From a virus, in IMG/VR virus record IMGVR_UViG_3300046318_000171, positions 1 to 64,000 of that record: a DNA stretch of 64,000 nt; one strand, written 5' to 3'. This document shows positions 5,776 through 37,678 of this stretch, piece by piece. The notes beneath the pieces are model-generated. The model saw nothing but the letters and a program-made list of their open reading frames with translations. It was not told the origin of the DNA and ran no database searches. A program made the position numbers and the translations under genes. Position 1 is the stretch's first letter, and each line of letters opens with the position of its first letter.

Positions 5776-5855
5776 GATGTTTTCTTCCTGTTAGGTTGTT
5801 TTGTTTGTGTTGGGGGACCACCCGAAGGTGGCCCCCCTTCACGAGGTGTTTGCTA

Positions 5856-6989
5856 TTAGTTGGTGTAAACCTTGTTAATAGCCTGGTCGGTGATGATACC
5901 GAGACCCCAGATTGAGTACCATGCTAGTGCGTGCTCACGACCAAAGTCTAGAACACCACCATCACGAAGCTCAACTGGAAGGCTGATTGCGTGACCAAAT
6001 GCGTTGTCACCAATCATGATTGACTCGTAAACGTCAGCAGCGTTACCAGTTGCGTTGGTTAGGTAACCAGCAAGTGCAGTAGCGTCTGCAGCCTCTGGGT
6101 TACCACCCTGACCTGCACCAGTGTTTGGAAGCACTGGAACTGAGGTCTGCGATGATGGAGCTCCAACGAGTGACGAGGTGGTGTAGCCTGACTGCGATGC
6201 AGCAAGCTTCTTAACCTGGGTGGTCTCGATGAATACGGTGTCGTATAGACGGCCGATTTCACCAAGCATGAAGTTACCTGGAGCAGCGTACTTGGTTACT
6301 TCGATGAACTCTGGGTTCGAGCGAAGGTCACGTGACTGCTTAGGGTGGATGAACATAACGTAGGTCTCACCAATACGAGGGATGTTCTTACCAGCAAGGG
6401 TAAGAGCTGAGTCCTTGATTGCACCAGTGGTCAACTTGAAGTTACCGTCTAGAGCACCAATCGAAGTACCAACGGTACCTTCGTCGTAGTTGGTGAAAGC
6501 GCCGCCTGAGATACCTGAACGGTCGTAACCGAAGGTAGCTGAGGTTGCTGCTGACAAGGTGTCACGAGCCTGTACGTCTAGGTACTGTGCCATGTGGCGA
6601 CCTAGAAGACGTGAAGCTGATGCCATGATGTCATCGAACGATGCGTTCAATAGGAGCTCTGACACAGCAACTGCGTAACCGTGCTCTGCAACGGTGATAG
6701 CAATCTGCTCAGCGGTCAGTGCGTTGGTGGTCATACGTACACCTTCGGTTAGTGGAGTTGGGTCCACTGCGAAGTTCTTGTAACGTAGGAAGTTAACACG
6801 TAGACCAGGTGCAACACCAAGCTCGGTCTTCTTAACAGCGAACTGCTCGAAGCGAAGGATTGGCATAGCCTGGAATAGGATTTCCTTTGACCAGATGGTC
6901 TGAATAGCCTGCGAAAGCTGGCTGTTCGAACCTGAGTAAGCGGTTGGTGCACCAGCGAGCTGGGACGAACCAGTAATAGCAGAAGCCAT
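5856..6989 (-). CDS. Major capsid protein (N4-gp56-like, HK97 fold)
   Basis: 'PLTEGV', 'EHGYAVAVSELL', 'GEIGRLYDTVFIET', 'DFGREHALAWY' motifs; follows scaffold and portal. Confidence 0.9.
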   Translation of the reverse strand: MASAITGSSQLAGAPTAYSGSNSQLSQAIQTIWSKEILFQAMPILRFEQFAVKKTELGVAPGLRVNFLRYKNFAVDPTPLTEGVRMTTNALTAEQIAITVAEHGYAVAVSELLLNASFDDIMASASRLLGRHMAQYLDVQARDTLSAATSATFGYDRSGISGGAFTNYDEGTVGTSIGALDGNFKLTTGAIKDSALTLAGKNIPRIGETYVMFIHPKQSRDLRSNPEFIEVTKYAAPGNFMLGEIGRLYDTVFIETTQVKKLAASQSGYTTSSLVGAPSSQTSVPVLPNTGAGQGGNPEAADATALAGYLTNATGNAADVYESIMIGDNAFGHAISLPVELRDGGVLDFGREHALAWYSIWGLGIITDQAINKVYTN

Positions 6990-7025
6990 TAGTTATGTCC
7001 TTTCAAAGACGGTCGGGTTTGGTTA

Positions 7026-7790
7026 TTAATTACCGAACAATCCCTGTCCACGGTTATTACCTGCTGTACCAAGTAGCTTGGCACGGTTCTTCGCATAATC
7101 TGCCATAGACATATTGTTAATGTCATTTGGTGAGTACTGTCGTGAGTCCGAGTCGTTGTCGAGGGGTCCAGAAGCAGGGCTCGTAATACGAGTTCCTACC
7201 ATTTCCTTGCGACTCTGCTGTGCAACTTGCGCAACCGAGTCGAAGATTTTCGCAGAACGTTCCTTAAGACCAAGGATGCTCTGCTCGATTTCATCCTTAG
7301 AATTTCCAGAAATAAGGTCAATCAGTTCTGGAATGATGCTGTCACGCTCAGCCTCAAGACGCTGCTGGCGGTACTGGCTAAGTTCCTGGAATTCACGCTC
7401 ACGCTCAAGAAGAGCGAAAGCCTTTTCACGGTCCTCACGCTCACGCTTGAGTTCCGCCTGCCATTCCTGTTCCTTCTTTGCAAGAAGGTCACGAACCTCA
7501 AGTTCGGCTTCCTCCTGCTTTTTGCGCTCTGCTGCCGCTTCAGCCTCACGGGCTTGGCGAGCTGCTTTGCGCTCGGCTTCTTTAGCCTCTCGCTCCTGCT
7601 CCTTTGAACGGAGTAGTGCAAGTTCTTCCTGTAGCTTCTCTACCTGAGGATAAAGCTTAGCCTTCTCCTGAGCACGTGCTTTCTGAATTGCTTCAGCCAC
7701 TTTGTCAGTGTTTGGAAGGTAGTTCTCCTCTGCAGGAACTGCTGCAGGTACTTCAGTAACCTCAGTTACTTCTGTGGTGTTTTCATCCAT
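7026..7790 (-). CDS. Capsid scaffolding protein
   Basis: E/K/R-rich coiled coil between portal and capsid; C-terminal 'MSMADYAKNRAKL'. Confidence 0.8.
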   Translation of the reverse strand: MDENTTEVTEVTEVPAAVPAEENYLPNTDKVAEAIQKARAQEKAKLYPQVEKLQEELALLRSKEQEREAKEAERKAARQAREAEAAAERKKQEEAELEVRDLLAKKEQEWQAELKREREDREKAFALLEREREFQELSQYRQQRLEAERDSIIPELIDLISGNSKDEIEQSILGLKERSAKIFDSVAQVAQQSRKEMVGTRITSPASGPLDNDSDSRQYSPNDINNMSMADYAKNRAKLLGTAGNNRGQGLFGN

Positions 7791-7905
7791 TGGGATTCTC
7801 TTTTCATTCTATGGGTCGTTTTCCGAATTAGTGCCACTTGACCTTGTCAGTTATAGTTTAAGTTCAGCAAAGTTTCAAACGAATTTCTCGCTAAACCAAA
7901 GTTTT

Positions 7906-9893: not shown

Positions 9894-9953
9894 TTGTTCT
9901 CCTCCAAGATTGTTAGCACCCCGCCCTTACGGGCGAGGTGACCAACAAGCGTA

Positions 9954-10349: not shown

Positions 10350-10443
10350 GGGGACTCCTTATGTATAGGGAATGGAAAGTCGACTGTTTCCAATACTTAG
10401 TTTCTCGTGTTATTGGGCTTTTTGCACACTGAACTCAAACTTT

Positions 10444-12510: not shown

Positions 12511-12519
12511 GTTCCTAGT

Positions 12520-13179: not shown

Positions 13180-13191
13180 ACTCCTTAAATA

Positions 13192-13233: not shown

Positions 13234-13243
13234 ATGGGGCTAA

Positions 13244-13927: not shown

Positions 13928-13979
13928 TATTTTTCTTTCTCTAGAGAGTTATTTGGTTCTTTCCCGTGCACGGGGAAAC

Positions 13980-16824: not shown

Positions 16825-16992
16825 TCACTCTTTCGGATTGCGTAGACGGTAGGTTACCGACCACAGGGCTAGGGTTCCGATAATGCAATAGCCCACGATG
16901 GTCTTCGCAGACCCTTCGAGAACTACCCATGCAACGAACATACCGAGCAAGGTCCACACCTGGCCCAGTAGGTCATTTATGAATTTCTTCAT
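16825..16992 (-). CDS. Small two-TM membrane protein (not in ORF track)
   Basis: MKKFINDLLGQVWTLLGMFVAWVVLEGSAKTIVGYCIIGTLALWSVTYRLRNPKE; ATGA overlap with the upstream gene. Confidence 0.7.
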   Translation of the reverse strand: MKKFINDLLGQVWTLLGMFVAWVVLEGSAKTIVGYCIIGTLALWSVTYRLRNPKE

Positions 16993-18401
16993 TGTTCTTT
17001 CCTTCTGATAGTTGATTCTGCTGAAACTGCTCCGCCACCAGACGAGCCACCTGTAGTTCCTCCAGATGTTGGTGCTGCTGCCACGGCAGCGGCTGCTGTA
17101 GCCGCTCCTACGGTTGCTTGAACTGCTGCGCCTGTTGCAATAACAGACGCAATAACGGTCTTCTCAGCCTCTTCACGGACCGCAGGGGCCATGTCAGCAC
17201 CGACGTTTCCAAGGGCGTTGAAAGACTCAAGCACAGCGGTGGCTACTGCTCCAACCACAGGGACAGCGGCAAGTTCTTCTGAGACCTCCGGGTCATCCGC
17301 TACTGCGGCTACTGCCAAGGCTTCAAGGGCCTGCTCGTATTCTGGAGAGCCCTGCTCTGTGTTAGCCAAGACCTCTTCAGCCGCAGATACAAGTTCTTCA
17401 ATTTCAGTATCAGTTAGTTCTTCCGGCTTAACCGCAGTCAAGTCCTCGATTAGGGCAACGGATTCTTCGGTGGGATTGCTCGGCTCTGGTTCTGGTGTCG
17501 GTTCGGGCTCAGGTGCTGTTGGCTCTTCAACAGGCTCCTCGGACGGCGAAGGCGCTGGACTTGGTTCAGGTGTGACACTGGGTTCAGGCTCTGGCGTCGG
17601 GTCAACTGTTGGCTCCTCCGTAGGTGTAGGTGTTGGCTCAGGAGTAGGCTCAGGAGTTGGAACCACAACAGGCGGCACTACAGGCTCCGGTGTTTGTGTT
17701 GGGACAGGTGTAGGAGTTGGAGTTGGCTCAACTACAGGAGTGGCTTGAAGAGGAACAATGCCCCAAGTAAAACGGGTCACCTTGACCACGCCGCCACAAG
17801 GGTCGCCAAATGTCCCGTTATCTAGGGGGATAGTGGCCGTGGTCTGACCGAGCATGTAGGTGCCCATAATTTCAGACACATCAAGGCCACAGTTCCAGTC
17901 GGTTGGGGAGCCGTACCAGCCACGGACGTAAGCAAACTCCCAGCCTTCAGGTGCGGTCAGAGTGACAGACTCGCCTTCCCAGTTCTCCTGTGCCCACCAG
18001 TTTGGCTCAGGTACAACTAGCGGAGTAGAACTGACTTCCATGATTGGGCCATAGTTGCCGCTCCAGTAGCCGTTATCGATGCCCTCTAGCTTTAGAGTCT
18101 GGGTGCCAGTAATCTCAAACGTGTATGTACGGGCTGCGTGCTTCTCGGTTACTTCAATAACCTGGGAGCCTAGGGTAATTCGGTAGGAGTCAATGACCTC
18201 ACCGTCAAATCCGATTTTGTTCGTGATGTCGTTAGTAACGACTACCGTTACTATTTCGTCGGTAAACGTGAAGTTGTGTTCAGTCCAGTAGTAAGTGAAC
18301 TGAATAGTTGTACTTGCGTACGCTGGTGTGGCGAATAGGAGCGGTCCAAAAACAACAGTTAGTATTCCAAATGATGCTGCGAGTTTACGCAGTCGATTCA
18401 T
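16989..18401 (-). CDS. Secreted/membrane-anchored protein with Pro-Thr-Glu stalk
   Basis: Signal peptide ending AYA, two beta domains, long PTPEP linker, C-terminal hydrophobic Ala/Val stretch and basic stop 'RRKEQ'. Confidence 0.75.
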   Translation of the reverse strand: MNRLRKLAASFGILTVVFGPLLFATPAYASTTIQFTYYWTEHNFTFTDEIVTVVVTNDITNKIGFDGEVIDSYRITLGSQVIEVTEKHAARTYTFEITGTQTLKLEGIDNGYWSGNYGPIMEVSSTPLVVPEPNWWAQENWEGESVTLTAPEGWEFAYVRGWYGSPTDWNCGLDVSEIMGTYMLGQTTATIPLDNGTFGDPCGGVVKVTRFTWGIVPLQATPVVEPTPTPTPVPTQTPEPVVPPVVVPTPEPTPEPTPTPTEEPTVDPTPEPEPSVTPEPSPAPSPSEEPVEEPTAPEPEPTPEPEPSNPTEESVALIEDLTAVKPEELTDTEIEELVSAAEEVLANTEQGSPEYEQALEALAVAAVADDPEVSEELAAVPVVGAVATAVLESFNALGNVGADMAPAVREEAEKTVIASVIATGAAVQATVGAATAAAAVAAAPTSGGTTGGSSGGGAVSAESTIRRKEQ

Positions 18402-21190: not shown

Positions 21191-21220
21191 ATCTTAGAAC
21201 GCCCCTGTAGGATTTGTCAA
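21191..21220 (-). promoter_or_regulatory. Sigma70-type promoter TTGACA-18-TAAGAT
   Basis: Consensus -35 at 21220-21215 and -10 at 21196-21191, upstream of the leader and tRNA. Confidence 0.65.
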
Positions 21221-21876: not shown

Positions 21877-21906
21877 ATTATGGGGGATTACTTGACTCTT
21901 GTCAAG
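21877..21906 (-). promoter_or_regulatory. Sigma70-type promoter TTGACA-17-CATAAT with palindrome CTTGAC-N4-GTCAAG over the -35
   Basis: -35 at 21905-21900, -10 at 21882-21877; inverted repeat at 21891-21906. Confidence 0.7.
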
Positions 21907-24349: not shown

Positions 24350-24632
24350 CAACAGAGCCGTTTCGGCTACTGCTTCCCCCAAGCAAGCCGTAAGCAGTCG
24401 TATGGCCAGATTACAGAGCACCTCCCTCGCCTGTTATCAGGTCATACAAAGCCCTGTGGCAGGGGAGAGAGGGCAGAGACAGGTGTTTGAGTCTATCTAG
24501 TCTCTTATAGATGTTTCTTCTCTCTCTCTCCTCACAAGTAACACCCCAAAGCCCCTCTTACCTAGGGGGGCAAGCCCCCCTGAGACCCCCCGCATAGTCG
24601 GGGCGTTCTTAGGCAAGCCGAAAGGAAGAAAG

Positions 24633-25598: not shown

Positions 25599-25843
25599 GG
25601 CTAGCCGTAGCCCTAGGGCGAACCTTTCGTGACATTCGCTTAGAGCAAGCATTGACGCTGCGACAAGTCGCTAAGCAATCACACTGCTCTCTTGGACACC
25701 TATCCGAGATGGAGCGGGCAGTCAAAAGCCCAACACCAGAGATGTTGGAGAACCTAAGCCGTGGCTTTGGTATCTCAACAGTCGAGCTACTCATCCGTGT
25801 AGCCGCAACCCTAACAAAGGAGGAACAGAAATGTTCACAGTAG
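25595..25843 (+). CDS. XRE-family helix-turn-helix regulator
   Basis: 'RDIRLEQALTLRQVAKQSHCSLGHLSEMERAVKSPT'. Confidence 0.85.
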   Translation: MRLAVALGRTFRDIRLEQALTLRQVAKQSHCSLGHLSEMERAVKSPTPEMLENLSRGFGISTVELLIRVAATLTKEEQKCSQ

Positions 25844-26076
25844 CAAGCGAGTCAGAACTCCCAGAGCGTGGCCCAGGTGGCAACGCCAAGTGGAAGCAAA
25901 TCATTGCGGAGGTCAAGAAGCACCCTGATGTGTGGCTAAAACTTGACCAAAAGGTGGTCAACACCTCATCTGCCTATGCTCTACGCCGTTATGGTGTAGA
26001 AGTTCGAGTGCGCAACTCAGAGCCTGACGGCTACACCATCTTCGTTCGCTTCCCGTCATCAAAGATTGACGAGTAG
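25831..26076 (+). CDS. Hypothetical protein (possible DNA-binding)
   Basis: AAGGAGG RBS; 81 aa. Confidence 0.6.
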   Translation: MFTVASESELPERGPGGNAKWKQIIAEVKKHPDVWLKLDQKVVNTSSAYALRRYGVEVRVRNSEPDGYTIFVRFPSSKIDE

Positions 26077-26208
26077 TTATGTGGATGGATAACACAGAGG
26101 CCAAGCCCACCTGCTCTTGCCCACGATGCCAGTGGAGCACAGAGTTGTGGACAGCGTATCTACGCACACGGGCAGGCGTGCCGACACAAACACGCACGCA
26201 CTAGACTA

Positions 26209-26268
26209 GGGCGAAACCGAGATGTGAAATCCTCGGTCGCTAGGTAATCTGCCTAGCCTGACGAGCCC
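26209..26268 (+). ncRNA. Type II hammerhead ribozyme
   Basis: GGGC-GAAA-CCGAG(loop)CTCGG-TC^-GCTAGG(loop)CCTAGC-CTGACGA-GCCC: all core nucleotides and three stems; GUC cleavage after 26238; intergenic. Confidence 0.9.
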
Positions 26269-26301
26269 GTCAGTTATGACCTACTAAAAAGGAGAAATCA
26301 A

Positions 26302-26463
26302 ATGGGTCGTAAGAATCACACGCACACCAAGCCTCAGGGACACAAGACCCGCAAGGCTGTAGCGGTATCAGTAGAAGCACCAGCACCACGCAAGCCAGCA
26401 CCAACTAAGGCGTTGCGTGTAGGTCAGGTATCTTCTGAGTGGCAGTCAAGGCGTGGTGCATAG
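26302..26463 (+). CDS. Small basic peptide (not in ORF track)
   Basis: AAGGAG RBS; MGRKNHTHTKPQGHKTRKAVAVSVEAPAPRKPAPTKALRVGQVSSEWQSRRGA. Confidence 0.6.
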   Translation: MGRKNHTHTKPQGHKTRKAVAVSVEAPAPRKPAPTKALRVGQVSSEWQSRRGA

Positions 26464-26610
26464 ATGACCACAGCCTACAAAGTCTTAGCGTATGCAGGAG
26501 TCGCAGTGATGTGGCTTGCTGTATTCGCAAGTGGTGTTGTGCCCCTTATCTTGGGTGCAACACTAGCGGGACTAGGCACAAGCCTAGTTCTAAGTCAACT
26601 AGATAAATAG
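26464..26610 (+). CDS. Small membrane protein (not in ORF track)
   Basis: 48 aa with two hydrophobic segments; abuts the previous stop. Confidence 0.55.
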   Translation: MTTAYKVLAYAGVAVMWLAVFASGVVPLILGATLAGLGTSLVLSQLDK

Positions 26611-26618
26611 GAGGAACA

Positions 26619-28382
26619 ATGCCAACTATCCCAGACCTAACGGTCGAAGATGTTGTCGCTGACCCACAAGTCGGTGTAAGTGTTCGGCATCTGCTGAACA
26701 ACTGGCGTGGGTCACAAGCCCGTTTGTCTGTCTATGGTAAGACAGACGCACGCATCCTTAGTGCAGCGTGGGACAGCCCACGTGATGTAAGTTCTAAGGA
26801 AGATGCAGTTGCTTTCGCTACTTGGATTACCAAGTTGTGGGACCACAGCAACCACATCACCAGCAACATTGAGTTGTTCTTGCCAATGCTGTCGTTGAAC
26901 ACAGACGATAGCGTGTCTATCCGCCACGCAGGTATCCAATCTACGTGGATGCGAGATGACATTGGCAACAGCGACATCATTCGCATCAAGGTAGATGCTA
27001 TCGCCAAGTTGTTTGGCGACCAAGCCAAGCTGCTGAGTTACGAAGAGTCGTCTGCACTCGGCTACAACAGCGACCGTGCAGTGTTCAGGTTCGTCAACAG
27101 CGACAAGTTTGCTGATGACTACATTGCAGACTCAAGTCAGCCGCTTATGGTTCGCACCAAGTGGTTGGCTGAGCGCAAGGCTTGGCAAGATGCAATCAGT
27201 GGTATAGGCTATTCGTCAGTGCAACCTACTGCTGACGGCAAGAGCCTGCTGTATGTGATGCCGTGCAACTCACGGTCGGTCAAGTCAATCGGCTTGTCAA
27301 TGTACCGCAGAGTTGCTGCTGGCATTGTTGGTATGAGCAATCGCCCAACATCAGCAGACCTCTGGCGTCACTTCCGCAACGAAGTCATTCGTCTAGAAGC
27401 ACGTGCCAATGGCACAGACGAAGCGGTGTTGCAGCAGCTCAAGTACAACAACTACGAGCAGTTCTGGTCCAAGATGAAGCAGGACAAGAAAGAGCGAGCC
27501 AAGGTTGTTGACCAAGCGGCTGTCGAAGCAATGTGGGCAACCATCCCAATTGCTGAAGCAGGCACCGAGTCAAGTCGTGGCTGGGGTATCGAAGTCGAGA
27601 CAGTTCGTGCTAACCAGACATCACGACCACGTGGTTGGGAAGATGTGTACGACGGCTCACTGCCAGAGTCCGGTGGTGGTTGCAACTGTGGTTGCGACGA
27701 CTGCTGCAATGGTGACCACTGCGACTACGAAGATGACGACTGCTTCGCCAACAGTGGTGGTGGTGAGTCAAGAGAGTTCGTCTCACCTATCCTGCGGTAC
27801 TTCAACAGCAATGGTCTGCGTCAGTTGTGCGGTGACCTTGGTGATGTCGAGCAATCTACAGCCCCAGGTATCCACGTTCACGTTGGTGCCGAAGACCTGA
27901 CAGTCACAGACGTAGCCCGTGTGCTGTTTGCCTATGGCGTAGTTGCTCCGTTCATCCAGCCGCTGTATCACCGCAAGGTGTTCGGTTACTGCCAAGAGAT
28001 GCCCGGCAACAATGTCCAGTGGTGGCTGACTGCTGCTAAGCGTCGTCTACAAGAGACAGGCAGAGTGCCACGACCTGCTGACATCTGCCACGAGCAGCCC
28101 GTCAACCGCTACCAAGATGTGAACACTCACGCCTTGGCTGCACACCAGACCCTAGAGTTCCGTGCTATGGGTCCGTTCTACAACTACGAGCACCTAGTCC
28201 GTTGGGCTTGGTTCTGCCGAGAGATGTTGAATGTATCCCGACTCAACCTAGACCAGCGTGTCTGGACTAGTTGCGAGTCACTCACTGATGTCATCAATGT
28301 ACTACGCAAGTATGGCTCAGAGTTCCCAACCGACAAGTCGCTGGCAGACACGCCAGCCGACACAAACACATACGAAGAATAG
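26619..28382 (+). CDS. Putative amidoligase (COOH-NH2 ligase, glutamine synthetase-like fold)
   Basis: 'WGIEVET', 'DGSL', 'REFVSPIL', 'GIHVHVG', 'RYQDVN', 'TLEFR' motifs of the putative amidoligase family; extra N-terminal ~310 aa. Confidence 0.85.
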   Translation: MPTIPDLTVEDVVADPQVGVSVRHLLNNWRGSQARLSVYGKTDARILSAAWDSPRDVSSKEDAVAFATWITKLWDHSNHITSNIELFLPMLSLNTDDSVSIRHAGIQSTWMRDDIGNSDIIRIKVDAIAKLFGDQAKLLSYEESSALGYNSDRAVFRFVNSDKFADDYIADSSQPLMVRTKWLAERKAWQDAISGIGYSSVQPTADGKSLLYVMPCNSRSVKSIGLSMYRRVAAGIVGMSNRPTSADLWRHFRNEVIRLEARANGTDEAVLQQLKYNNYEQFWSKMKQDKKERAKVVDQAAVEAMWATIPIAEAGTESSRGWGIEVETVRANQTSRPRGWEDVYDGSLPESGGGCNCGCDDCCNGDHCDYEDDDCFANSGGGESREFVSPILRYFNSNGLRQLCGDLGDVEQSTAPGIHVHVGAEDLTVTDVARVLFAYGVVAPFIQPLYHRKVFGYCQEMPGNNVQWWLTAAKRRLQETGRVPRPADICHEQPVNRYQDVNTHALAAHQTLEFRAMGPFYNYEHLVRWAWFCREMLNVSRLNLDQRVWTSCESLTDVINVLRKYGSEFPTDKSLADTPADTNTYEE

Positions 28383-28391
28383 GAGATACTT

Positions 28392-29489
28392 ATGTGTGGT
28401 ATCGCAGGCTTTAGCCTAAGTAAGACCAGCAAGATAAAACCTCGACAGTTGTCGAACGCTTTGCTGGGTGCAATCGAGGACCGTGGCGGTATGGCTTCGG
28501 GCTTCGCTTGGCAAGACAATGAGCATATGGGGTTCTACAAAGCAGCCGTCACCGGCTCTACCCTGTCGCTCAAGACAATGCCAAAGGATGTGCGTAATGT
28601 TATCTTGCACACCCGCCTAGCCACTCACGGCTCAACCAATGACAACCGCAATAATCACCCAGTGCTCTCGCCTAACGAGGACATTGCGTTGGTTCACAAC
28701 GGAGTCATTTACAACCACAACCAAGTACGCAATCAGTTGGGTATGACACTGCCAGATGTAGATACAAGTGTTATCCCTGCAATCATTGAGCAGCGTGGGC
28801 TTGACTCTATCAACGAGTTGGATGGTGATGCCGCAATTGCGTGGTTCAACCGCAAGGAGCACAACACTATGCACCTTGCACGCTACAAGCACTCACCGCT
28901 AGTTATGGCTCAGGTAGAAGACGGGTCATTCATCTTCTGCTCAACCGAGCAGTTGCTATGGCGTGTGCTTGTCAGTATGGACCTAATGCCAACGTGGATG
29001 GAGACAGCCAGCGAGCTGGACTACTTCACCATCCGTGATGGCGTAGTGATGAGCAAGTCGATGTTGCCTGAACCTAAGTACAACGACTACTCGTACGACT
29101 ACTCGTACTTCCGCCACCAGACAGCCGGTGCCAAGCCAAAGACTATCGGGTCTTCGTTTGCGTACTACGACGAGTGGGACGACGACTACACCCCGTATTC
29201 GTTCAACGGTAAGAACACCGACCGTGATGACGAGTTCGACAATGACGACGACTATGCCGAAGACGACTTCAACACTGACAATGTTGTGCCGCTCAATCGT
29301 GCAAAGTTCTACACCGTCATCTACGACACCATCATCAAAGACCACGAGTACATCTACTACTACGGCGACGAAGAGAAGACGTGGAAAGACGAGTTGTTCA
29401 TCTGGGCTAACGAGAACTACATCAAGTTAGTTGACTACGGAGTAATCGACAAGGGTGAGTTGCTCTCAACCACTGACGAGTTGTTCTAG
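28392..29489 (+). CDS. Class II (Ntn) glutamine amidotransferase with acidic tail
   Basis: N-terminal MCGIAG, 'HTRLATHG', 'NHP', 'HNGVI', 'VDT'. Confidence 0.9.
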   Translation: MCGIAGFSLSKTSKIKPRQLSNALLGAIEDRGGMASGFAWQDNEHMGFYKAAVTGSTLSLKTMPKDVRNVILHTRLATHGSTNDNRNNHPVLSPNEDIALVHNGVIYNHNQVRNQLGMTLPDVDTSVIPAIIEQRGLDSINELDGDAAIAWFNRKEHNTMHLARYKHSPLVMAQVEDGSFIFCSTEQLLWRVLVSMDLMPTWMETASELDYFTIRDGVVMSKSMLPEPKYNDYSYDYSYFRHQTAGAKPKTIGSSFAYYDEWDDDYTPYSFNGKNTDRDDEFDNDDDYAEDDFNTDNVVPLNRAKFYTVIYDTIIKDHEYIYYYGDEEKTWKDELFIWANENYIKLVDYGVIDKGELLSTTDELF

Positions 29490-29565
29490 TTGCAATGTCG
29501 GGCAGGTGCTTGTGCGTGAGTGCCTGCCCGACACAAACATACACGCACACGATAAGGAGATACAA

Positions 29566-29967
29566 ATGGAACAAACCACAGTAGCAGGCTTAGTAGCCAC
29601 TACACCAAGACACCTAGTCACACAAGACGGGTTGCCAATCACCTCGTTTCGTATGGCAGTACCAACACGCCGTTTCGACAGAACCACGAGCAAGTGGGTA
29701 GATGGCGAAACTAACTGGTACACAATCACAGCGTTCCGCCAACTAGCAATCAACCTTGTAGGCTCAATCAGCAAGGGTGAGCGTGTGCTAGTGCAGGGTA
29801 ATTTGCGAGTGCGTGACTGGGACAACGGAGAGCGTGCCGGTACAAGCGTCGAAATTGAAGCGTTGTCAGTAGGACACGACCTGAACTGGGGCACAGCAGT
29901 GTTCACCCGCACCGTGCTAACGCAGGATGTAGACCCAGCCGCACAAGAACCACCATACGAGTACTAA
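29566..29967 (+). CDS. ssb: Single-stranded DNA-binding protein (bacterial OB type)
   Basis: 'GLVATTPRH', 'RRFDR', 'GETNWYTITAFRQLA', 'KGERV', 'GHDL'; ATG at 29566 after AAGGAG. Confidence 0.9.
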   Translation: MEQTTVAGLVATTPRHLVTQDGLPITSFRMAVPTRRFDRTTSKWVDGETNWYTITAFRQLAINLVGSISKGERVLVQGNLRVRDWDNGERAGTSVEIEALSVGHDLNWGTAVFTRTVLTQDVDPAAQEPPYEY

Positions 29968-29978
29968 GGAGAAAACAA

Positions 29979-32900
29979 ATGACTGATTTTGTGTGCAACA
30001 ACTGTTCCTACGAATGTGATTGGGTAAACGAGCAGTATCTATGCCAGACCTGTCTCAATGCTTACAGGTCAGGAGTGATAGAAACACGCTCCAACATTCG
30101 TTGGCAGTCCACACTCACACGAGAGATGGTTGACCATCTTCCTTGGGATGTGTGGTCAAGCCTAGAAGACGAACTCAACGAAGCAGTCGCAGAGTTGTGT
30201 GCGAAATACGGCGTAAGCGGAGACGATTACGGCGACGAAACAATCCAGATACTAGAAATAAAGGAGAACAAGTAATGACCCCGTTTGAAAAGTACCAAGA
30301 AGCAATCCTAAAACAGTTCAACGCTTTCTTGCGGTCAGGTAATCGAGAGCCGGTAGACAAGTACGATGTGTACTTCCAGTCGTACCTAATCGGTTCGATG
30401 TCTGCTTTGGTTAGCGACGAGAAGTACGAACAGCACACGGCATTTGCCCTAAGTGAATTGGAGAACAAGTAATGAGCAAAATCGTTTACTTCGTAGTAGG
30501 CGTAGACCTTGAAGCCAAGTCTGCGTTCATTGACGACGACACTTTCCTTGCCAGATTCGACAAGGAAGAAGCCGTCTTCGACGACTCAACAGGTAAGTGG
30601 TCGGCAGACGACGACCTAGTGCTTTACAAAGAAGCACTAGAAATCCTCAACAACACACCAATAGCAAAGGACGGAAACTAATGACACTCGAAGAACTAGA
30701 AAGAGCAATCACCCGCTGGGGCGACATCACCTACCTAGGCGTGTACACACTACGCAAAGATGGTGCGTTCATCAAGATGGTAGTCAATGGTGCATCTAAG
30801 CAAGACATCGAAGATTACCTGCGAGATGAATACCCTGACCACTTCGAAGAAGAGGACTGGGAAGACGAAGAGGAAGAAAGTGAGTAGACCAACTATTCGC
30901 CTAGCCAACGACCTTGAAGCAGAAATCCTGCTTGGGTATGTTGCTGAGTTGCTAGATGACGATAACGATGTAGTCACTGGGTTTGCCAGAGTAATGCTAC
31001 TGAGAACCTATCGTCAACTAACCGAAGCACTAGAACTAGTAGACATAGGTGAATGCGACAACTGCGGACACCAATACGACACAAGTTCAAGAAATGACAG
31101 GTGCGGAGATTGCGGGCTATGCGGTGCGTGTTGCACTAGCGAGCCTGAGCACCAGCCAACACAAACACTCAAACCGCAATACGAGTACTAAGGAGAACAA
31201 ATAATGACAGTTGGAAGACTAATCAACCTGTTGCAAACCCTGAACGAAGACGAGCCAATCGTGTTTCAGTTCTTGATTGCCGAGCACGTCAATTACTCAG
31301 CAGAAGACTTTGAACGTATCGCTGACTTCCTAAAGGACAGCGGCCCGTTTGGAGAGGACATAGCACGAGTTCTAAAAGAATGGTGCGGAGAAGCATTTGA
31401 CAACCTAGACGAGTGGGAAGAGGAGGACTAGATGTCTAAGCACTACATCAAGGTACTAGTAGAGTACTGGTACGAGAGCGACAACGACGAGTTTGAGTCG
31501 TCAAGTGCAGCCGAGGAGTTCGGTTGGAACATTGACGAGCTCAACTACGGAAGCGTTCAATCAATCACCGTTGAGGAACTACCTAACGATGAAGAGGAAG
31601 AAGAGGAGAACTAAATGGGAATCAAGTACTACGTGCCAATCAACCTAGACATTGAGGTTGAAGCAGACAACGCAGACAAAGCGTGGGAAGAAATCTACAC
31701 CAAAATCAATGGGCAAATCATTGACCTAGTAGAAAGCAACTTTGCTGGGGTGTCATTCGTTCTAGAAGTTGGCGAACCAGATGAGGTGCGTGACTAATGG
31801 AAATCAAAATCGATGACACATCATGGAAGACCTTGTTCTATTCTCTCATGGAAGCAATTGAAGACAACGAAGACCTGATTGACTTGTACGAAGTGTTCGA
31901 ACAAGCAGGAGCAGAACTCGACGCAGATGAGGAGGACGAGTAATGGCAAATCACACACACCTAGTCGTGGCATACGACCACGACACCAAGCAGTTCTGGT
32001 TCGATGGCGATGGTTCACGAGAGTGGATTCGCCGTCTGTTCACTCCTGAGACCAACACTTGGTCTGATGAGCAGGAAGAGTACATCGCTATCCCTGCCGA
32101 GCAGGAGCAAAAGGCAATCAACGCACTTGGAGCACTTGGTATCGACATTACTAACGATAGTGCACTGGTCTGGCAGGAGCAGGGATGAGCAATGCCAACA
32201 CAAACAAGGAGCATCAAATGGAATATGCAGTAGCAGTAGAGCGGGAACGTATCCTGCAAATACTAGAAATGAAATTGTCATCAATGATTGACAATGACCA
32301 ATGGTCAATGACCCGTAACGAGTTCAACGACCTAATCGATTACATTGCCAATGTAAAGGAGGATAACTAATGCAGGACACCTACATCCTAGACAAAATCA
32401 TTGAGTACCTGGAGAACGGCGGGATACTCACCAAAGAAAACTATGAAACGTTCATCATTGAGTGCTAAGGAGAAAAAAAATGATTAAGTATCAAGAACTA
32501 GGCTACAAATCGTACGTTACTGGTGACGGACACAGCGGTGTTGAGAGCGTAGTTGTATTCGACCCCGACGAGTTGTACGACCAGTACCCACAAGTGTGGG
32601 ACATCATTGAGAACATTGCAGATTATTTCAAGTATGACTTCGTGGTTGCTTTCCTAGAGCAGGACATGGAAGTACTGGAAGAAGCCGCAGCAGAGCACGG
32701 ATTCGACATCTCGGTAGTTACAGACAAGGAGAACTAATGACTAAGAAACAATTACTAAAATTCGCAAACGAACTGAGCGACACCGAAGAGACTGTAATTT
32801 TTGCTTACACAAAGTTCGACATTGACTACGAACGAGAGTACGATAACTTGCCACCGCTTACAGACGAGCAATGGGAAAAGTTCCGTTACTGGATGAACAA

Positions 32901-35073
32901 GTATGTCGATGTATCTAACGACTATCAAGACGCTTTACACTACGCACTAAAGGAAGGCTAGAAATGACTGAAGTAGCACTAAACCTGTGGGACGCTGACT
33001 TATACGGCGATGGCAGTGGCGGTAGAGGTATCAAACTTACCGCTTATCAAATAGACGAAGACCTTGCTGTAAATTCGGCTGTGTTCATTAGCGTCAACTT
33101 GACTAAGGATGACCTACCTAAGCGGTATGTTGTAGACGACGAGTGGGCTTACCCGGGCAGTAAGAAGTTCACTAAGTGGATGCAGCTGTTTATCGCTAAG
33201 CAGTTAGAAAGGAAAACAAAGTGAGTGAGTTCAAAGTAAAGGTAGAACGCCACTACTCGTACGAAGTAGTCGTTGCCGCAGATAGTGCGGAACAGGCTAG
33301 GGAGTTAGTACGTGACTATGAAATCGAAGACCTGGAGTCATTTGAAACAGACGCCTGGTTTGACTTCAGTTTTGCAGAGGAGGTAAAGTAATGACAATTG
33401 AACACGAGTACGAAGTACGTTTCATTTTGGAACTATCCAACATCATCACGCTGGCTATTACCGCAGAAGAAGATGAAGAAGCAGCAATTGCACAAGCCGA
33501 AGACCGCTTAGCACTTGACGGCATCGATATCCAAAGTTTGGATGTGCTTGAAGTAACCGCAAAGAAAACAGGAGAGTACCACTAATGACAGACACATCAA
33601 CCTACACAGACGGTGAAGTACTAGACGCTATCTATGACTTCATTGGTAACGGAGGAACACTAGGGCCGGATAACTTTGACGAGTTCATGGCTACCTTTGA
33701 GGAGGAAACAGATGGAAGCAAATAAGATGATGCACTACCAGTTCGTCAGTGATTACGCAGTAATCAAATTTACTGTGCCTGGTCGAACTGAATGGTCAGA
33801 GGAAGAGTGGGATTCAGCCGCAGACTCTGACCTAGTATCATACGTACACAACCCAGAGCAGTACTACATGGATGACTGCTGGGAACTAGAGGAGGAAACA
33901 AATGAATAATACCGGAACAATAGCAGGACTAACTGCTGACCTCAAAATCCTTCGTGCAGCGTATGCAAAAAGGAACTTGTGGTCTGAGGCTAGGGTAGTA
34001 GATTTGATTCTAAACAAAATCGTTGCCCCTTACGCAGAGGATGAGGAAACAAATGAGTGAACCACAGGGCTACACACAGGCAGTTGTTGACATTTTGAAC
34101 TCACAGCTTGGGCAGTCAATTACTCAAGCGTTCACGGCTGGTGAAGAACACGAGCGTAAACGCATCATCAGTTTGCTTAGTCACTTGCACGACGAGTATA
34201 CTGACGACTACGGCTACACCATGGAATCCATGGCAATCTCTAACGCCATTGACCGTATCAAAGGAATCACAAAATGAGTAAGCACAAACGTCAGTTGTCT
34301 GTACTAGGATGGGTAATCTACTTCCTAGGAAGAACAATCAAAGTACTACTACACCTACAGAGCTCGATAATGATGGCTCAGGAACGGAGAAAAAAATAAT
34401 GGATGAAGAAAGATACCTGTCCCCAGAGAGCATGATGAAAATGATTGACGCTCTGGCTGTCGAAGTAATCAGAGCCGGTGAAGCGGAGTCATACCTAATC
34501 AACAACGAACTACTCACCAACGAACAGGTGACCACGGTAATGAAGGCCAACACCTTCCTGACTGTGTTCGCTACGTTGTTGCTACGCATTGTTGAGCGAG
34601 AGAAACCTGAGTTCGCCAAAATGATTTTAGACATCTGGATAGACAGCCCAGTCAAGAACCTAGTACGCCTAGCCTTTGCTGAAGAGATTGAGGCAGCAGT
34701 TGCCCACATCGCTGACGGCATCAACGAACTAGAGCAGCTAATCAACCGCAAGGATGATTAGTGAAGGCTATCAACGGAACTAAAGTGTTCGGGTGGTGCA
34801 TGTTTCCTATGAGCGACGCCCAACACAAACTCTGTAAACTAACCAACATCAATGCCGACGGCACTACACGCACCTGTGAATGCCCCTGCCACAAGGAGAA
34901 AACAAATGAATAAAGACATCAAAGCACTGATAGATGGCTTAGCCGTTGGGCTAGGCTTTGTGGGTGTGACGGGCTTTGCAATAGACGCAAGCAAATGGCC
35001 CACACTATTCCTGCTTATCTCAATATCCATGGCACTACCAATCGCAACACGACTAAAGGAACACGATGAGTGA
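29979..35073 (+). other. Array of about 25 small, mostly acidic, translationally coupled hypothetical early genes
   Basis: Consecutive 30-130 aa ORFs, most with an AAGGAG/GGAG RBS and TAATG/ATGA/GTGA overlaps; several paralogous families. Confidence 0.7.
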
Positions 35074-35580: not shown

Positions 35581-35590
35581 TGGGTAAAAG

Positions 35591-35622
35591 AAAACCCCCC
35601 TGTGTAATAGCAGGGGGGTTTT
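35591..35622. terminator. Bidirectional intrinsic terminator between convergent blocks
   Basis: AAAACCCCCCTG-N8-CAGGGGGGTTTT. Confidence 0.8.
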
Positions 35623-35632
35623 CCACTAACGC

Positions 35633-37678
35633 TTATGCGTTGTCTTTAATCAACTTAATCTCACAAGCGTCTGTGGTGCAGTAAGCCTCGCCAATAGCGT
35701 CGATACCTAGTCCAGCATAGACTCCAGAGAAATCAATAGGGAACAACTGCTTTGAGTACTCATCATACACGTCCTCAGTAATCTGAGTGTACGGCATCTG
35801 AGGGTACGTGTCATTGCCCATAGGCAAGAACGACACAGTCTTCAACTGACCATCGTACATGTGCAGCGCAGTACCTACCGAGTCCGATTCCTTTTCAGCA
35901 TCAAAGGTTACAGTAACCGACACCGAGTTGTCTGACCAGTAACGCTGTGCCTGAGCAGCCAACGCCATCTTCTCGTAGATTGAAACTTCCTTCTCTGAAC
36001 GCTTAGCGTCAGACTTGATAGGGAAGAATACAACAGACGTAGTGTCTGGAGACTCTGACGCCGGTTCAATACGGTACTGAGCCATCTTAAACAACGCCAA
36101 CATAGGGTCGCTGTTCGAGAAACGAATAGCACGCAAGAAGAATTTACCACCCGCAGTCCAGTGAACACCTGGACTTTCGCCAGCCAAAATAGACACAGTG
36201 CCTGAAGGCTTAACCGTAGTCATCTTAATTGACTCACGGATACCTAGCCATTCACTGTACGTCTTGTCGTACTCCTTAACCACACCATAACCTTCATCCA
36301 TCCACTCACGTAGAGTCTGCATACCACGGTTGTCTGCGAAGTTAGCCACGCCACTGATTGATGTACCAATGCGGCGGTTGCGCTGCATAATTGCGTTGGT
36401 CTCTTCCCAGTGGGTAGGTAGCAAGGTCACAGTCTTTGCGTAGAGGTAAGCAAACTTGAGGGTACGCTTGAAGTCCTCTAGGCTGTCGTGACGGTTCAAG
36501 TAGGTCTCAACCAAGGTGCACATCTCAAAGCTTTCAAGGCTCTGCTCTGCACAAGGGTTGTAGCCAACTACACGGCGGTCCTTGTTGTTTACCGGGTCGG
36601 CAAGACGGCCATACTTACGGCTAACATCCATCCAGATAACTCCTGGCTCACCGTTACGAACAATTCCGTCAACAATTGGCGAGAAGTCAGTGCCAACACA
36701 AACATCAACGCTGTTGTTCGACATCCATGCCCAGCCTGGGTTGTTAGGGTCGTACGAGTTACGGTCAGGGAATACATCAGCGTTCTTAAGGTTCAAGAAG
36801 TCTGCGTCGTCAATACGGCCAATCAATAGCTCCGCTGAACGACGTACGTTACCTGAAACTACACAGACACCAATCATGTTGCCGATGTCTGCAATGTCCT
36901 TACGAGTTAGCTGCTCACCAGCACGGCCAATGAACATCTTGCGGATGTGTGCGTGCAAACGCTCCAACGGCTCACTACCTGCTGCGGTTCCACCAAAGGT
37001 CTTGATAGGAGCACCGTATGGGCGAATCTGTGAGTAATCAAACTCAATCAACTTCTGCTCTGGCTTTAGGAACGAGTTAATCAACGCTACGGTTGACTCC
37101 TGCCAGCCTTCACGAGTGTCTGGGATTTCGTAGCTAGATACGCCTGATGGCTCGTAAATCTCGAACCCCTTGTCCGCACCCTTGTCATCGAACCCTACAC
37201 CAACGCCTAGCATCGACGCTTCCATTAGGAAACCAAATGGCTTGGCTGGGTTGTTCTTGGTCATTTCGTTAGTTGAAACAAACGCACAGTTCTGTAGGGC
37301 TGCTGAATTCTTCTGGGTGTTAACAATGTCAGTGCCCATTACCCATAGGCCACGGCCCGGTGGAGTCCACTTCAAATTGAATAGGCGGTCAAACGCCTCT
37401 TTTGCTGATGCTGCCGCTTTTGCGTCGCTCCATGGAAGGCGGCTAGACTTAGCCCAGTCCTTCTGCAATGAATACATGCCGTTGATTACACGCTCACACA
37501 CTTCCGCCCAAGTTTCCTTGGTGTCGTCTTCTTTCTTACGGCTGTATGTTCTGAGGAATGTAATCTCGCCTACTGAGTTTCCTGCTACGTCTGCGTAACC
37601 AAACGGCGGCTTCTTGTCCTTGTAACCTGCGACGAACTCGCTCGCTAACTGGAATGAAAAATTAGTCATAACCACCAT
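35633..37678 (-). CDS. nrdJ: Class II (adenosylcobalamin-dependent) ribonucleotide reductase
   Basis: 'TPPGRGLW', 'LQNC', 'GNVRRSA', 'NPCAEQSL', 'TVKPSGT', C-terminal 'CTTDAC'. Confidence 0.93.
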   Translation of the reverse strand: MVVMTNFSFQLASEFVAGYKDKKPPFGYADVAGNSVGEITFLRTYSRKKEDDTKETWAEVCERVINGMYSLQKDWAKSSRLPWSDAKAAASAKEAFDRLFNLKWTPPGRGLWVMGTDIVNTQKNSAALQNCAFVSTNEMTKNNPAKPFGFLMEASMLGVGVGFDDKGADKGFEIYEPSGVSSYEIPDTREGWQESTVALINSFLKPEQKLIEFDYSQIRPYGAPIKTFGGTAAGSEPLERLHAHIRKMFIGRAGEQLTRKDIADIGNMIGVCVVSGNVRRSAELLIGRIDDADFLNLKNADVFPDRNSYDPNNPGWAWMSNNSVDVCVGTDFSPIVDGIVRNGEPGVIWMDVSRKYGRLADPVNNKDRRVVGYNPCAEQSLESFEMCTLVETYLNRHDSLEDFKRTLKFAYLYAKTVTLLPTHWEETNAIMQRNRRIGTSISGVANFADNRGMQTLREWMDEGYGVVKEYDKTYSEWLGIRESIKMTTVKPSGTVSILAGESPGVHWTAGGKFFLRAIRFSNSDPMLALFKMAQYRIEPASESPDTTSVVFFPIKSDAKRSEKEVSIYEKMALAAQAQRYWSDNSVSVTVTFDAEKESDSVGTALHMYDGQLKTVSFLPMGNDTYPQMPYTQITEDVYDEYSKQLFPIDFSGVYAGLGIDAIGEAYCTTDACEIKLIKDNA

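What the first reader, a model, noticed from the sequence alone, without database searches (positions are those of the whole stretch)
5802..36704. Polarised 13-mer SCCRACACAAACA repeated across the genome, independent of reading frame
Seen on the + strand at 26180, 28356, 29527, 31155, 32194 and 36692, with a 1-mismatch copy at 34819. Seen on the - strand at 5802-5814 and 17691-17703. About 0.01 copies would be expected by chance in 64 kb at equal base frequencies. It occurs between genes and in different frames (PTQT; ADTNT/ANTNK; antisense within nrdJ), so it is a nucleic-acid signal. All copies point away from the ~23.5 kb divergence point, including 36692, which is opposite to local transcription. 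In several copies the first bases form the 3' arm of a hairpin (e.g. TGTCGGGCAGG...CCTGCCCGACA at 29496-29533, the capsid hairpin at 5812-5837, TGGCA/TGCCA at 32171-32197), leaving an ACAAACA tail. Inference: a Chi-like or primase/replication signal, a protein-binding site, or an antitermination/processing element.
Basis: partly seen in the sequence, partly recalled or inferred. Interest (0 to 1): 0.7.

Follow-up and report, generated by a model that had tools for sequence, protein, structure and literature searches.

The report
Phage 12-mer tied to HNH nickase
A 12-base A/C-rich word repeated 5-13 times in this uncultured actinobacterial phage and its relatives is real, changes at all copies together between related phages, and was found only in genomes that encode a small I-HmuI-like HNH endonuclease, so it is most likely that enzyme's strand-specific recognition (nicking) site rather than a Chi, promoter or RNA signal.

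Summary
All eight exact 13-mers sit at the stated coordinates, against 0.02 expected by chance. The window is part of a 91-kb circularly assembled myovirus-like actinophage with no integrase or RNA polymerase gene. The conserved core is 12 nt, CCRACACAAACA, and has no partner element. About 80% of copies are co-oriented with local genes. They concentrate in the hypervariable early block, sit mostly at gene junctions, and recur after the capsid-gene hairpin and antisense in nrdJ, where the word is kept by an otherwise unseen Cys codon.

Related metagenomic phages each carry one word type only: CCRACACAAACA, CCRCAACAAACA, CCRCAACAAAAA or CCAACCYAACAA. Orthologous sites changed in parallel, which implies a trans-acting reader. 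A 97-aa HNH_3 protein encoded 18.5 kb beyond the window, whose closest solved relative is the nickase I-HmuI, is present in 26 genomes. Twenty-five of these have a word; 13 genomes without the protein have none.

The best reading (confidence about 0.45) is recognition sites of a phage HNH nicking endonuclease, as in the localized-nick systems of T5, phiKMV and tf. No enrichment was seen in 401 actinobacterial genomes, which argues against Chi. Stoperator, promoter and nut-like readings each fail a defining test. An RNA punctuation element remains the main rival.

The parts
227..239 (-). Core copy TCCGACACAAACA: 12-nt core exact, first base of the 13-mer differs. It lies inside a minus-strand ORF in sense orientation (codes SDTNT).
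5802..5814 (-). Copy CCCAACACAAACA abutting the 3' end of the capsid-gene hairpin (5812-5837), 26 nt before the GTG start at 5775. This site is conserved in every word-bearing relative examined, while the inner stem of the hairpin varies.
17691..17703 (-). Copy inside ORF 16989-18401, in sense orientation, encoding PTQT in a Pro/Thr-rich linker. It may be a coincidence of low-complexity coding.
26180..26192 (+). First early-block copy, in the 225-nt gap between ORF 25831-26076 and ORF 26302-26463.
28356..28368 (+). Copy in the last 27 nt of the amidoligase gene (codes ADTNT), 23 nt before the amidotransferase ATG at 28392.
29527..29539 (+). Copy whose first 7 bases form the 3' arm of the 29496-29533 hairpin, 26 nt before the SSB ATG at 29566.
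31155..31167 (+). Copy in the 3' end of ORF 30880-31191, 36 nt before the ATG at 31204.
32194..32206 (+). Copy that starts 6 nt after the stop of ORF 31943-32188 and directly abuts the AGGAG of the ORF starting at 32218.
34819..34831 (+). One-mismatch copy (last base T) in the gap before the ATG at 34906. The same ...AAACT variant recurs in relatives.
36692..36704 (+). Copy antisense inside nrdJ (35633-37678, minus strand), 1.1 kb past the end of the early block and in the early block's orientation. On the nrdJ strand it reads GTT TGT GTT GG (Val-Cys-Val-Gly).

Best explanation
The word is a DNA-level, asymmetric recognition site for a phage-encoded small HNH endonuclease of the I-HmuI (nicking) type. 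In this genome that gene lies at 82,523-82,816 on the minus strand, outside the window. The most likely outcome is strand-specific nicks at 5-13 fixed places, clustered in the early-gene block, as in the localized single-strand interruptions of T5-, phiKMV- and tf-like phages.

Shown: the sites, their strand bias, their genome-specific variants, and their co-occurrence with the HNH gene. Inferred: that the HNH protein binds the word, that it nicks rather than only binds or makes a double-strand cut, which strand it nicks, and what the nicks are for. The junction positions are read as tolerance, because a fixed 12-mer fits most easily between genes. The co-orientation with transcription is read as keeping the cut on one particular strand relative to RNA polymerase.
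For: 1. Each genome carries one word type only, and the types are mutually exclusive. CCRACACAAACA occurs in 8 fetched genomes (5-10 copies each), CCRCAACAAACA in G416 (7 copies), CCRCAACAAAAA in G007 (7) and CCAACCYAACAA in G420, G430 and G435 (6-11). Orthologous sites (after the capsid hairpin, and stop-word-terminator) carry the local type. This parallel change requires a trans-acting reader.
2. The HNH_3 protein is present in 26 genomes, and 25 of them carry a word. None of the 13 genomes without the protein has one. There are at least two within-clade contrasts: G007 against G006 and G009, and G008 against its relatives. An uncorrected Fisher test gives p of about 2e-9.
3. The protein matches Pfam HNH_3 (E 6e-8). 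Its only PDB sequence match is I-HmuI, 1u3e. The AlphaFold model (pLDDT 76) shows a three-stranded sheet plus helix followed by a beta-beta-alpha fold, and its best Foldseek match is again 1u3e, though weakly (prob 0.80). I-HmuI is a strand-specific nickase, and nicking enzymes recognise non-palindromes (PMC3017599).
4. The site is self-contained. A logo of 54 copies shows nothing conserved beyond the 12-mer.
5. DNA-level selection acts regardless of transcription. In nrdJ, only word-bearing relatives have Val-Cys-Val (GTT TGT GTT), where other homologues read EVSVG, EAKVG and so on. In G418 all copies lie on one strand, antisense to the early genes.
6. The pattern parallels published nick systems: a 9-20-nt asymmetric consensus, 4-14 sites, uneven clustering, a variant consensus in related phages, and phiKMV nicks on the non-coding strand (PMC3517423).
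7. The word is not enriched in 401 actinobacterial genomes, so a host regulon is unlikely.
Against: No physical evidence of nicks can be obtained here. The HNH tree does not sort cleanly by word type: the HNH of G416 nests among type-1 proteins. A protein of 97 aa is small for reading 12 bp; I-HmuI uses three DNA-binding parts. One HNH-positive record (G422, 73% complete, HNH 50% identical) has no word. The co-occurrence is not corrected for phylogeny, and seven of the HNH-negative genomes were not searched for the CCAACCYAACAA type. T5 and tf nicks all lie on one strand, whereas here the strand follows transcription in most genomes, which needs an extra assumption. The fixed register with the capsid hairpin and the recurrent stop-word-terminator arrangement could instead point to an RNA role. 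Small HNH proteins can also serve terminases in cos cleavage.
Confidence: 0.45

Rival explanations
1. A cis-acting RNA element ('punctuation') in polycistronic transcripts: a single-stranded A/C-rich site at cistron boundaries that is cut or bound by an RNase or RNA-binding protein to set mRNA stability, processing or downstream translation.
For: About four fifths of 54 copies are co-oriented with local genes. An RBS and start lie within 40 nt downstream on the same strand for 33% of copies, against 2.7% for random positions, and 39% lie near a same-strand stop, against 6.9%. The register with the capsid hairpin is fixed while the inner stem varies between relatives. A stop-word-terminator arrangement recurs in at least 7 contigs. 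The 3' half of the word is almost never predicted to be paired.
Against: Every position effect follows from the sites simply being intergenic. The hairpin is absent at most copies. The antisense nrdJ copy is under selection. In G418 all five early-block intergenic copies (four exact, one with the ...AAACT ending) are antisense to real, homology-supported genes. No RNA-binding reader tracks the word, whereas a DNA endonuclease does. Rfam finds no ribozyme or other family at these sites.
Confidence: 0.2
2. An operator or roadblock site for another sequence-specific DNA-binding protein (stoperator-like silencing or early shut-off), with the HNH link being indirect.
For: The word is an asymmetric 12-13-mer, intergenic, mostly co-oriented with transcription, dense in the early block, and varies by genome, as Cluster A stoperators co-vary with their repressors (stoperator biology is from my own knowledge).
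Against: No tyrosine or serine integrase is present. No copy lies in the 23.4-23.85 kb divergent control region. No HTH or other regulator family tracks the word; the best non-HNH family scores 5 of 8 against 0 of 6. The XRE gene is also present in word type-2 genome G416 and absent from several type-1 genomes.
Confidence: 0.1
3. A promoter or transcription-start element for host RNA polymerase modified by a phage factor, analogous to a T4 late promoter.
For: Copies sit upstream of genes. In the CCAACCYAACAA genomes, some copies come in divergent pairs, each preceded by TAGGCT 8-9 nt upstream.
Against: No -35 or -10 partner appears in the logo. One copy abuts the SD with only 11 nt to the ATG. 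At least 7 copies are followed within 1-6 nt by a terminator hairpin. No phage RNA polymerase or sigma factor was found among the 58 ORFs scanned, which include all the large ones.
Confidence: 0.07
4. Short boundary sequences that act as recombination linkers for shuffling early-gene cassettes, with no dedicated nuclease.
For: The early block is hypervariable: almost none of its proteins are shared between relatives, yet the word persists there, and its positions are not tied to orthologous genes.
Against: Twelve bp is very short for homologous exchange. Second-order selection would hardly keep 12 of 12 identity across phages with 45% core identity, or inside nrdJ. This reading does not explain the capsid and terminator sites or the HNH link.
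Confidence: 0.05
5. A Chi-like, primase or replication-polarity signal read by host or phage replication and repair enzymes.
For: Within the window all copies point away from about 23.5 kb, including the antisense nrdJ copy.
Against: Of 401 Actinomycetia genomes, 330 have no copy and nearly all the rest have 1-2. The few higher counts that were inspected (G236, G093, G024) are unrelated repeats; G283, with 8 copies, was only partly inspected, and two of its copies share identical flanks. Known Chi sites are 5-8 nt. Copies are too few and too clustered for lagging-strand priming. Relatives break the polarity rule (G002 31596, G003 86924, G004 6719, and the G418 block).
Confidence: 0.03

Closest known systems
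Localized single-strand interruptions (nicks) of phages tf/LUZ24-like, phiKMV-like and T5 (PMC3517423)
   Same: A short asymmetric consensus occurs a handful of times per genome, with a strand rule and uneven clustering in one genome region. Related phages carry a variant consensus (tf TACTGTGAC against LUZ24 TACTATGAC), and those authors proposed nickase-site co-evolution. The function of the nicks is unknown even there.
   Different: Nicks are not demonstrated here. The hosts are actinobacteria and the phages are 90-100-kb myovirus-like genomes. The strand follows transcription direction rather than being a single strand (except in G418). At least four word types are seen, and a specific candidate enzyme co-occurs with them.
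I-HmuI / I-BasI HNH nicking homing endonucleases of Bacillus phages (PDB 1u3e; PMC3017599)
   Same: I-HmuI is the only solved sequence match and the best fold match of the 97-aa protein. Both have an N-terminal beta-sheet followed by the HNH beta-beta-alpha core. I-HmuI is a monomeric, strand-specific nickase with an asymmetric target.
   Different: I-HmuI is 174 aa, is intron-encoded, reads a single site of about 24 bp, and has extra helical and HTH DNA-binding parts that are missing here. The similarity is weak (E 0.025; Foldseek prob 0.80).
Stoperators of Cluster A mycobacteriophages (L5 gp71; from my own knowledge)
   Same: A 13-bp asymmetric site, intergenic, co-oriented with transcription, dispersed, and co-varying with its reader between subclusters.
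   Different: Stoperators belong to temperate phages with an immunity repressor and an operator at the early promoter, and number 24-30 or more per genome. Here there is no integrase, no site in the control region, and 5-13 sites.
Start-associated sequences (SAS) of Cluster K mycobacteriophages (from my own knowledge)
   Same: A conserved 13-mer repeated upstream of a subset of gene starts in an actinophage, with unknown function.
   Different: SAS contains the SD and sits at a fixed few bases from the start codon. This word has no SD, lies 0-22 nt before it or elsewhere, and also occurs before terminators and inside genes.
PeSL cassettes of T4-type phages (promoter-early stem-loops; from my own knowledge)
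   Same: Repeated elements that punctuate hyperplastic blocks of small early genes, sometimes next to stem-loops.
   Different: PeSLs are 50-70-bp promoter-plus-terminator units. This is a bare 12-mer with no promoter features.

Membership tests
Localized-nick (sci) systems of T5 / phiKMV / tf-type phages | Short asymmetric consensus present several times per genome, far above chance | tested here: met
   8-10 copies against 0.02 expected. Relatives have 5-13 copies, with reversed-pattern controls of 0-1.
Localized-nick (sci) systems of T5 / phiKMV / tf-type phages | Strand rule: all sites on one strand, or on the non-coding strand | tested here: inconclusive
   About 80% of copies follow the local coding strand. 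G418 has all copies on one strand. G000 has 6 plus-strand and 4 minus-strand copies.
Localized-nick (sci) systems of T5 / phiKMV / tf-type phages | Ligase-repairable nicks physically present in virion DNA at the consensus | not testable with these tools
   Only assembled metagenomic sequence is available.
Localized-nick (sci) systems of T5 / phiKMV / tf-type phages | Phage-encoded nicking function | tested here: inconclusive
   A candidate HNH_3 protein co-occurs with the word: 25 of 26 HNH-positive genomes against 0 of 13 HNH-negative ones. Its activity is untested.
Localized-nick (sci) systems of T5 / phiKMV / tf-type phages | Related phages carry a variant consensus | tested here: met
   Four mutually exclusive word types were found.
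I-HmuI-like HNH nicking endonucleases (for the 97-aa protein) | HNH beta-beta-alpha-metal core with the conserved D-H...N...N motif | tested here: met
   Pfam HNH_3 E 5.8e-8. V63, H65, N68, N77 and N86 are invariant, and D64 is nearly so, in 20 homologues. 1u3e is the only PDB sequence match.
I-HmuI-like HNH nicking endonucleases (for the 97-aa protein) | Overall fold match, including the N-terminal DNA-binding sheet | tested here: inconclusive
   The model has pLDDT 76 with a sheet-helix followed by beta-beta-alpha. The best Foldseek match is 1u3e, but with E 0.16 and TM 0.39.
Cluster A stoperators | Temperate phage with an integration or immunity system | tested here: not met
   No PF00589 or PF00239 match anywhere in the 91-kb genome.
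Cluster A stoperators | Operator copy overlapping the early lytic promoter | tested here: not met
   No copy, even with 2 mismatches, lies in the 23.4-23.85 kb divergent region.
Cluster K start-associated sequences | Contains the SD and sits at a fixed short distance from the start codon | tested here: not met
   The word contains no G apart from the R position. The distance to the SD is 0-22 nt, and many copies are not near a start.
Chi-type recombination hotspots | Strong over-representation in the host chromosome | tested here: not met
   Of 401 Actinomycetia genomes, 330 have no copy and nearly all the rest 1-2. The higher counts that were inspected are unrelated repeats. The true host is unknown, so this holds only for the genomes searched.
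Promoters (sigma-A type or phage RNA polymerase type) | Partner element at fixed spacing, or a cognate phage polymerase or sigma factor | tested here: not met
   The logo is flat outside the 12-mer. No RNA polymerase or sigma factor was found among the scanned ORFs. Sigma-70-like sites are not enriched.
Lambda-type nut / rrn boxA-boxC antitermination sites | Adjacent boxB hairpin at fixed spacing, and a U-containing NusA/NusB-binding sequence (AUU or AUA critical) | tested here: not met
   The word has no U, and a hairpin is absent at most copies. The NusA requirements are taken from PMC2724277.

The most novel reading that the evidence does not exclude
The word and HNH pairs form a family of programmable, strand-specific nick systems with at least four co-evolved specificities. 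Their sites are placed every 1-2 kb at gene boundaries of the hypervariable early block, where the nicks act as recombination hotspots that shuffle early-gene cassettes between co-infecting relatives, or exclude relatives carrying a different word.
Probability: 0.12. Interest if true: 0.85.

Novelty: new variant of a known kind. Interest (0 to 1): 0.62.

Why it matters
Localized nicks have been known in T5 since the 1960s and later in phiKMV- and tf-like phages, but their function remains unknown and the nicking enzymes are poorly defined. If the reading here is right, a very abundant family of uncultured freshwater actinophages offers a natural series of matched enzyme-site pairs: one small HNH protein and at least four 12-bp specificities. 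It also offers close relatives that lack both the enzyme and the sites. That makes two questions directly testable: how a minimal HNH reads DNA, and what phage genome nicks are for. Such enzymes could also serve as compact sequence-specific nickases. If the reading is wrong, the word is still one of the clearest genome-wide regulatory words in an uncultured phage lineage, with variants that must be matched by some reader.

Tried and rejected
- **Streptomyces phages:** BRock and LuckySocke (capsid about 60% identical) do not have the word.
- **Amidotransferase relatives:** IMG/VR returned no relatives for this protein.
- **Rfam:** at gathering and at E<=1, only a tRNA and a spurious long-hairpin match were found in the window. 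There is no hammerhead at 26209-26268, and nothing next to copies in relatives.
- **Sigma-70-like promoters and intrinsic terminators:** not enriched in 21-38 kb.
- **Upstream hairpin as part of the element:** rejected as a general feature.
- **Other repeated 11-mers in the genome:** these are coding coincidences.
- **Reader by phylogenetic profiling of type 1 only:** no family beat 5 of 8 against 0 of 6, and no core protein is more similar among type-1 genomes. The HNH link appeared only after the 'word-less' relatives turned out to carry variant words.
- **Host explanations:** the actinobacterial genomes with the most copies that were inspected hold unrelated repeats or coding hits. Pre-16S leaders and spacers of four 1.3-1.4-Mb actinobacterial genomes have no near match and no notable complementarity.
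- **NusA boxC or spacer resemblance:** rejected, because those sites need AUU or AUA.
- **14-mer scan of IMG/VR:** gave mostly random single hits and Pro/Thr-repeat genes.
- **Literature:** a search for the word itself found only primers.
- **Unpublished genomes:** the 401-genome sample included G277, G387 and G021, each with at most one hit. No claim depends on them.

Full report
**Observation.** Dinucleotide-preserving shuffles give a mean of 0.02, and none of 100 shuffles reached 8. With one mismatch allowed, the copy at 34819 is confirmed, and a further copy at 227-239 (-) differs only at its first base. The window is the first 64 kb of a 91,238-bp contig with a 127-bp end overlap, which indicates a circular assembly. 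The conserved core is the 12-mer CCRACACAAACA, and the only additional copy is at 81463-81474 (-). The 9-mer ACACAAACA occurs nowhere else in the window.

**Genome context.**
- The capsid protein is about 60% identical to those of Streptomyces phages BRock and LuckySocke, which lack the word.
- More distant capsid relatives lie in actinobacterial genomes such as Terracoccus, Streptomyces and Nonomuraea.
- IMG/VR holds at least 600 close relatives, with capsids 79-94% identical, from metagenomes.
- Genes run on the minus strand from 23.4 kb down to 1 and from 91 kb down to 35.6 kb. These include terminase, portal, capsid, fibre, sheath, baseplate, DnaB, primase, PolA, RecA, a TGT/DpdA-like protein and nrdJ.
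- A block of about 45 small plus-strand genes fills 23.85-35.58 kb. It includes XRE, an amidoligase, an amidotransferase, SSB and WhiB.
- There is no tyrosine or serine integrase, and no RNA polymerase or sigma factor among the ORFs scanned.
- The small-gene blocks on both sides of 23.5 kb are hypervariable; almost none of their proteins are shared with relatives.

**Anatomy of the sites.** In the window, the five exact early-block copies (26180-32194) and the near copy at 34819 are co-oriented with the genes and spaced 1.0-2.6 kb apart. A seventh plus-strand copy, at 36692, lies 1.1 kb past the end of the block, inside nrdJ. The copies sit in intergenic gaps or in the last 27-37 nt of the upstream gene, 11-36 nt before the next start codon. 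One copy abuts the hairpin after the capsid gene.

Over 54 exact copies in eight related genomes:
- 59% lie outside called genes, against 25% for random positions.
- 33% have an RBS-supported start within 40 nt downstream on the same strand, against 2.7%.
- 39% lie near a same-strand stop, against 6.9%.
- Only 11% lie inside opposite-strand genes, against 37%.
- About four fifths are co-oriented with local genes.
- A logo shows no conserved position outside the 12-mer, except a preference for C or G before it and against G after it. There is therefore no partner element.
- Strong upstream hairpins exist at the capsid site and at 29496-29533 but not at most copies.
- A recurrent arrangement is stop codon, word, then 1-6 nt and an intrinsic terminator. 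This is seen in G000 at 81463 and in at least six other contigs.

**Conservation.** After the capsid gene, every word-bearing relative has a G/C-clamped hairpin. Its inner stem and loop differ between phages, and it is followed in a fixed register by AACACAAACA.

The antisense nrdJ copy is informative. Across 80 nrdJ homologues the protein segment is variable (EVSVG, EAKVG, ETSVG and others). Only the closest relatives have Val-Cys-Val, encoded GTT TGT GTT, which recreates the word (the last base of the word differs in two of them). Neighbouring codons vary freely at synonymous sites. This is selection on the nucleotide word, on the strand opposite to nrdJ transcription.

Some in-gene sense copies, such as 17691, encode PTQT-like linkers. 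The same word arises by chance in Pro/Thr-repeat genes of unrelated viruses, so these copies are doubtful.

**Variants.** Relatives first scored as lacking the word carry a different one. G416 is the closest relative by core proteins (67%). It has CCRCAACAAACA seven times, including at the capsid-hairpin site and at the stop-word-terminator site, which are orthologous to 5802 and 81463 here. G007 has CCRCAACAAAAA seven times. G420, G430 and G435 have CCAACCYAACAA 6-11 times, partly as divergent pairs 63-76 bp apart start to start.

Each genome carries one type only. Type 1 occurs both in close relatives and in phages with only 45% core identity. Parallel change at dispersed and orthologous sites cannot be explained by drift. 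It requires a trans-acting reader with matching specificity.

Profiling type 1 against all other genomes found no tracking family. Once any word type is counted, one family fits: a 97-aa protein encoded at 82,523-82,816 (-) in this genome, between the head and tail modules.
- It has homologues in all 11 word-bearing genomes of the first set and in none of the three word-less ones.
- Extending the set gives 26 HNH-positive genomes, 25 of which have a word. The exception is G422, which is 73% complete and whose HNH is 50% identical.
- The 13 HNH-negative genomes have none. This includes the complete genomes G006 and G008, whose clade-mates have both the protein and a word. Seven of the 13 were not searched for the CCAACCYAACAA type.
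- The uncorrected Fisher p is about 2e-9. The test is not corrected for phylogeny.
- In about 30 contigs a typed copy lies 0.2-1.8 kb downstream of the gene.

The protein matches Pfam HNH_3. A profile of 20 homologues finds only I-HmuI (1u3e) among solved structures (E 0.025). The AlphaFold model (pLDDT 76) shows a three-stranded sheet plus helix followed by the beta-beta-alpha core, and its best, though weak, Foldseek match is again I-HmuI. [quoted passage not shown]

**Comparison with known systems.** Phage tf has 14 nicks within TACT/RTGMC, all on one strand and 11 of them in one half of the genome. Its relatives carry TACTATGAC instead, and the authors proposed co-evolution of nickase and sites. 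In phiKMV-like phages the nicks lie in a 20-nt consensus on the non-coding strand. T5 has five major nicks. The function is unknown in every case (PMC3517423).

The present word shares the size class, asymmetry, copy number, clustering and lineage-specific variants. For clustering, G442 has 11 copies at 0.8-1.8-kb spacing. It differs in following transcription direction rather than a single strand, except in G418, and no nick has been shown.

**Alternatives.**
- *RNA punctuation element.* This explains the orientation and the hairpin and terminator neighbours. It does not explain the nrdJ copy, the antisense G418 block whose genes are homology-supported, or the HNH link.
- *Stoperator-like operators.* These fail on lifestyle and on the missing site at the control region.
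- *Promoter.* This fails on the flat logo, the zero spacing to an SD at 32194, and the copies directly before terminators.
- *Chi-like.* This fails on the host search: 330 of 401 Actinomycetia genomes have no copy, and the higher counts that were inspected are unrelated repeats. The true host is unknown.
- *nut- or NusA-like.* This fails because those sites need U.

**Verdict.** The signal is real and strongly selected. It is most likely the target of a phage HNH endonuclease that marks the genome, probably by nicking, at fixed and mostly intergenic places. The nicking itself and its purpose are inferred, not shown.

Noticed in passing
L020-L068 and others (loci), about 20-60 nt after the capsid gene: In the sister clades, the hairpin after the capsid gene carries a conserved loop, TACTCCTTCCT or TACTCCTTCTTT. 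This contains CUCCUU, as in the 3' tail of 16S rRNA (an anti-SD mimic), and is followed by an A/C-rich leader.
   Followed up: no
G418 (contig behind L200), 2481-7144: Five 190-360-nt intergenic modules share the same layout on the gene strand: terminator, reversed word, CCCACCCACCC, a small CCCT/AGGG hairpin, then a CRP-like palindrome TGTGA-N6-TCAC before the next gene. On the word strand the G-runs could form a G-quadruplex.
   Followed up: partly
G007 (behind L048) and G422 (behind L484): A second dispersed word, TAAAGAAGTTA or CTTCTAAAGAAG, occurs 9-16 times per genome, sometimes directly before the A/C-rich word. It is partly coding. G422 has this word but no A/C-rich word.
   Followed up: no
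G420, G430, G435 (behind L163, L190, L181): The CCAACCYAACAA type often comes as divergent inverted pairs whose starts are 63-76 bp apart. In G420 each member is preceded by TAGGCT 8-9 nt upstream, which resembles a -10 element.
   Followed up: partly
   Followed up: partly
window 24456-24535: A long, near-perfect hairpin of about 80 nt with AG/CT-rich arms lies in the 356-nt gap after the first early gene. It was picked up only as a spurious miRNA-precursor match.
   Followed up: no
window 48197-48493 (-): A SpoVS-family protein (Pfam PF04232, E 2.5e-28) is among the most conserved genes of the whole phage family: 76-84% identical in 12 of 13 compared genomes and 65% in G420.
   Followed up: no
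G000 81794-83724 (-), outside the window (L415:17794-19724): A run of very lysine-rich small proteins lies next to the HNH gene. Two of them (63 and 78 aa) are 71-94% identical in four relatives, more conserved than the capsid for the 63-aa one, and have no Pfam match.
   Followed up: partly
G236:C1:2854728-2899637 (L368-L371), a 69% GC actinobacterial chromosome: A repeat of more than 100 bp containing CCAACACAAACA occurs 7 times, co-oriented, within 45 kb. It is unrelated to the phage element.
   Followed up: partly
window 21191-21220 and 21877-21905 (-): The two best sigma-70-like promoter matches of the 21-38 kb scan (10 and 11 of 12) lie on the minus strand, upstream of tRNA-Asn and the leftward small genes. 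The plus-strand early block has no comparable match at its head.
   Followed up: no
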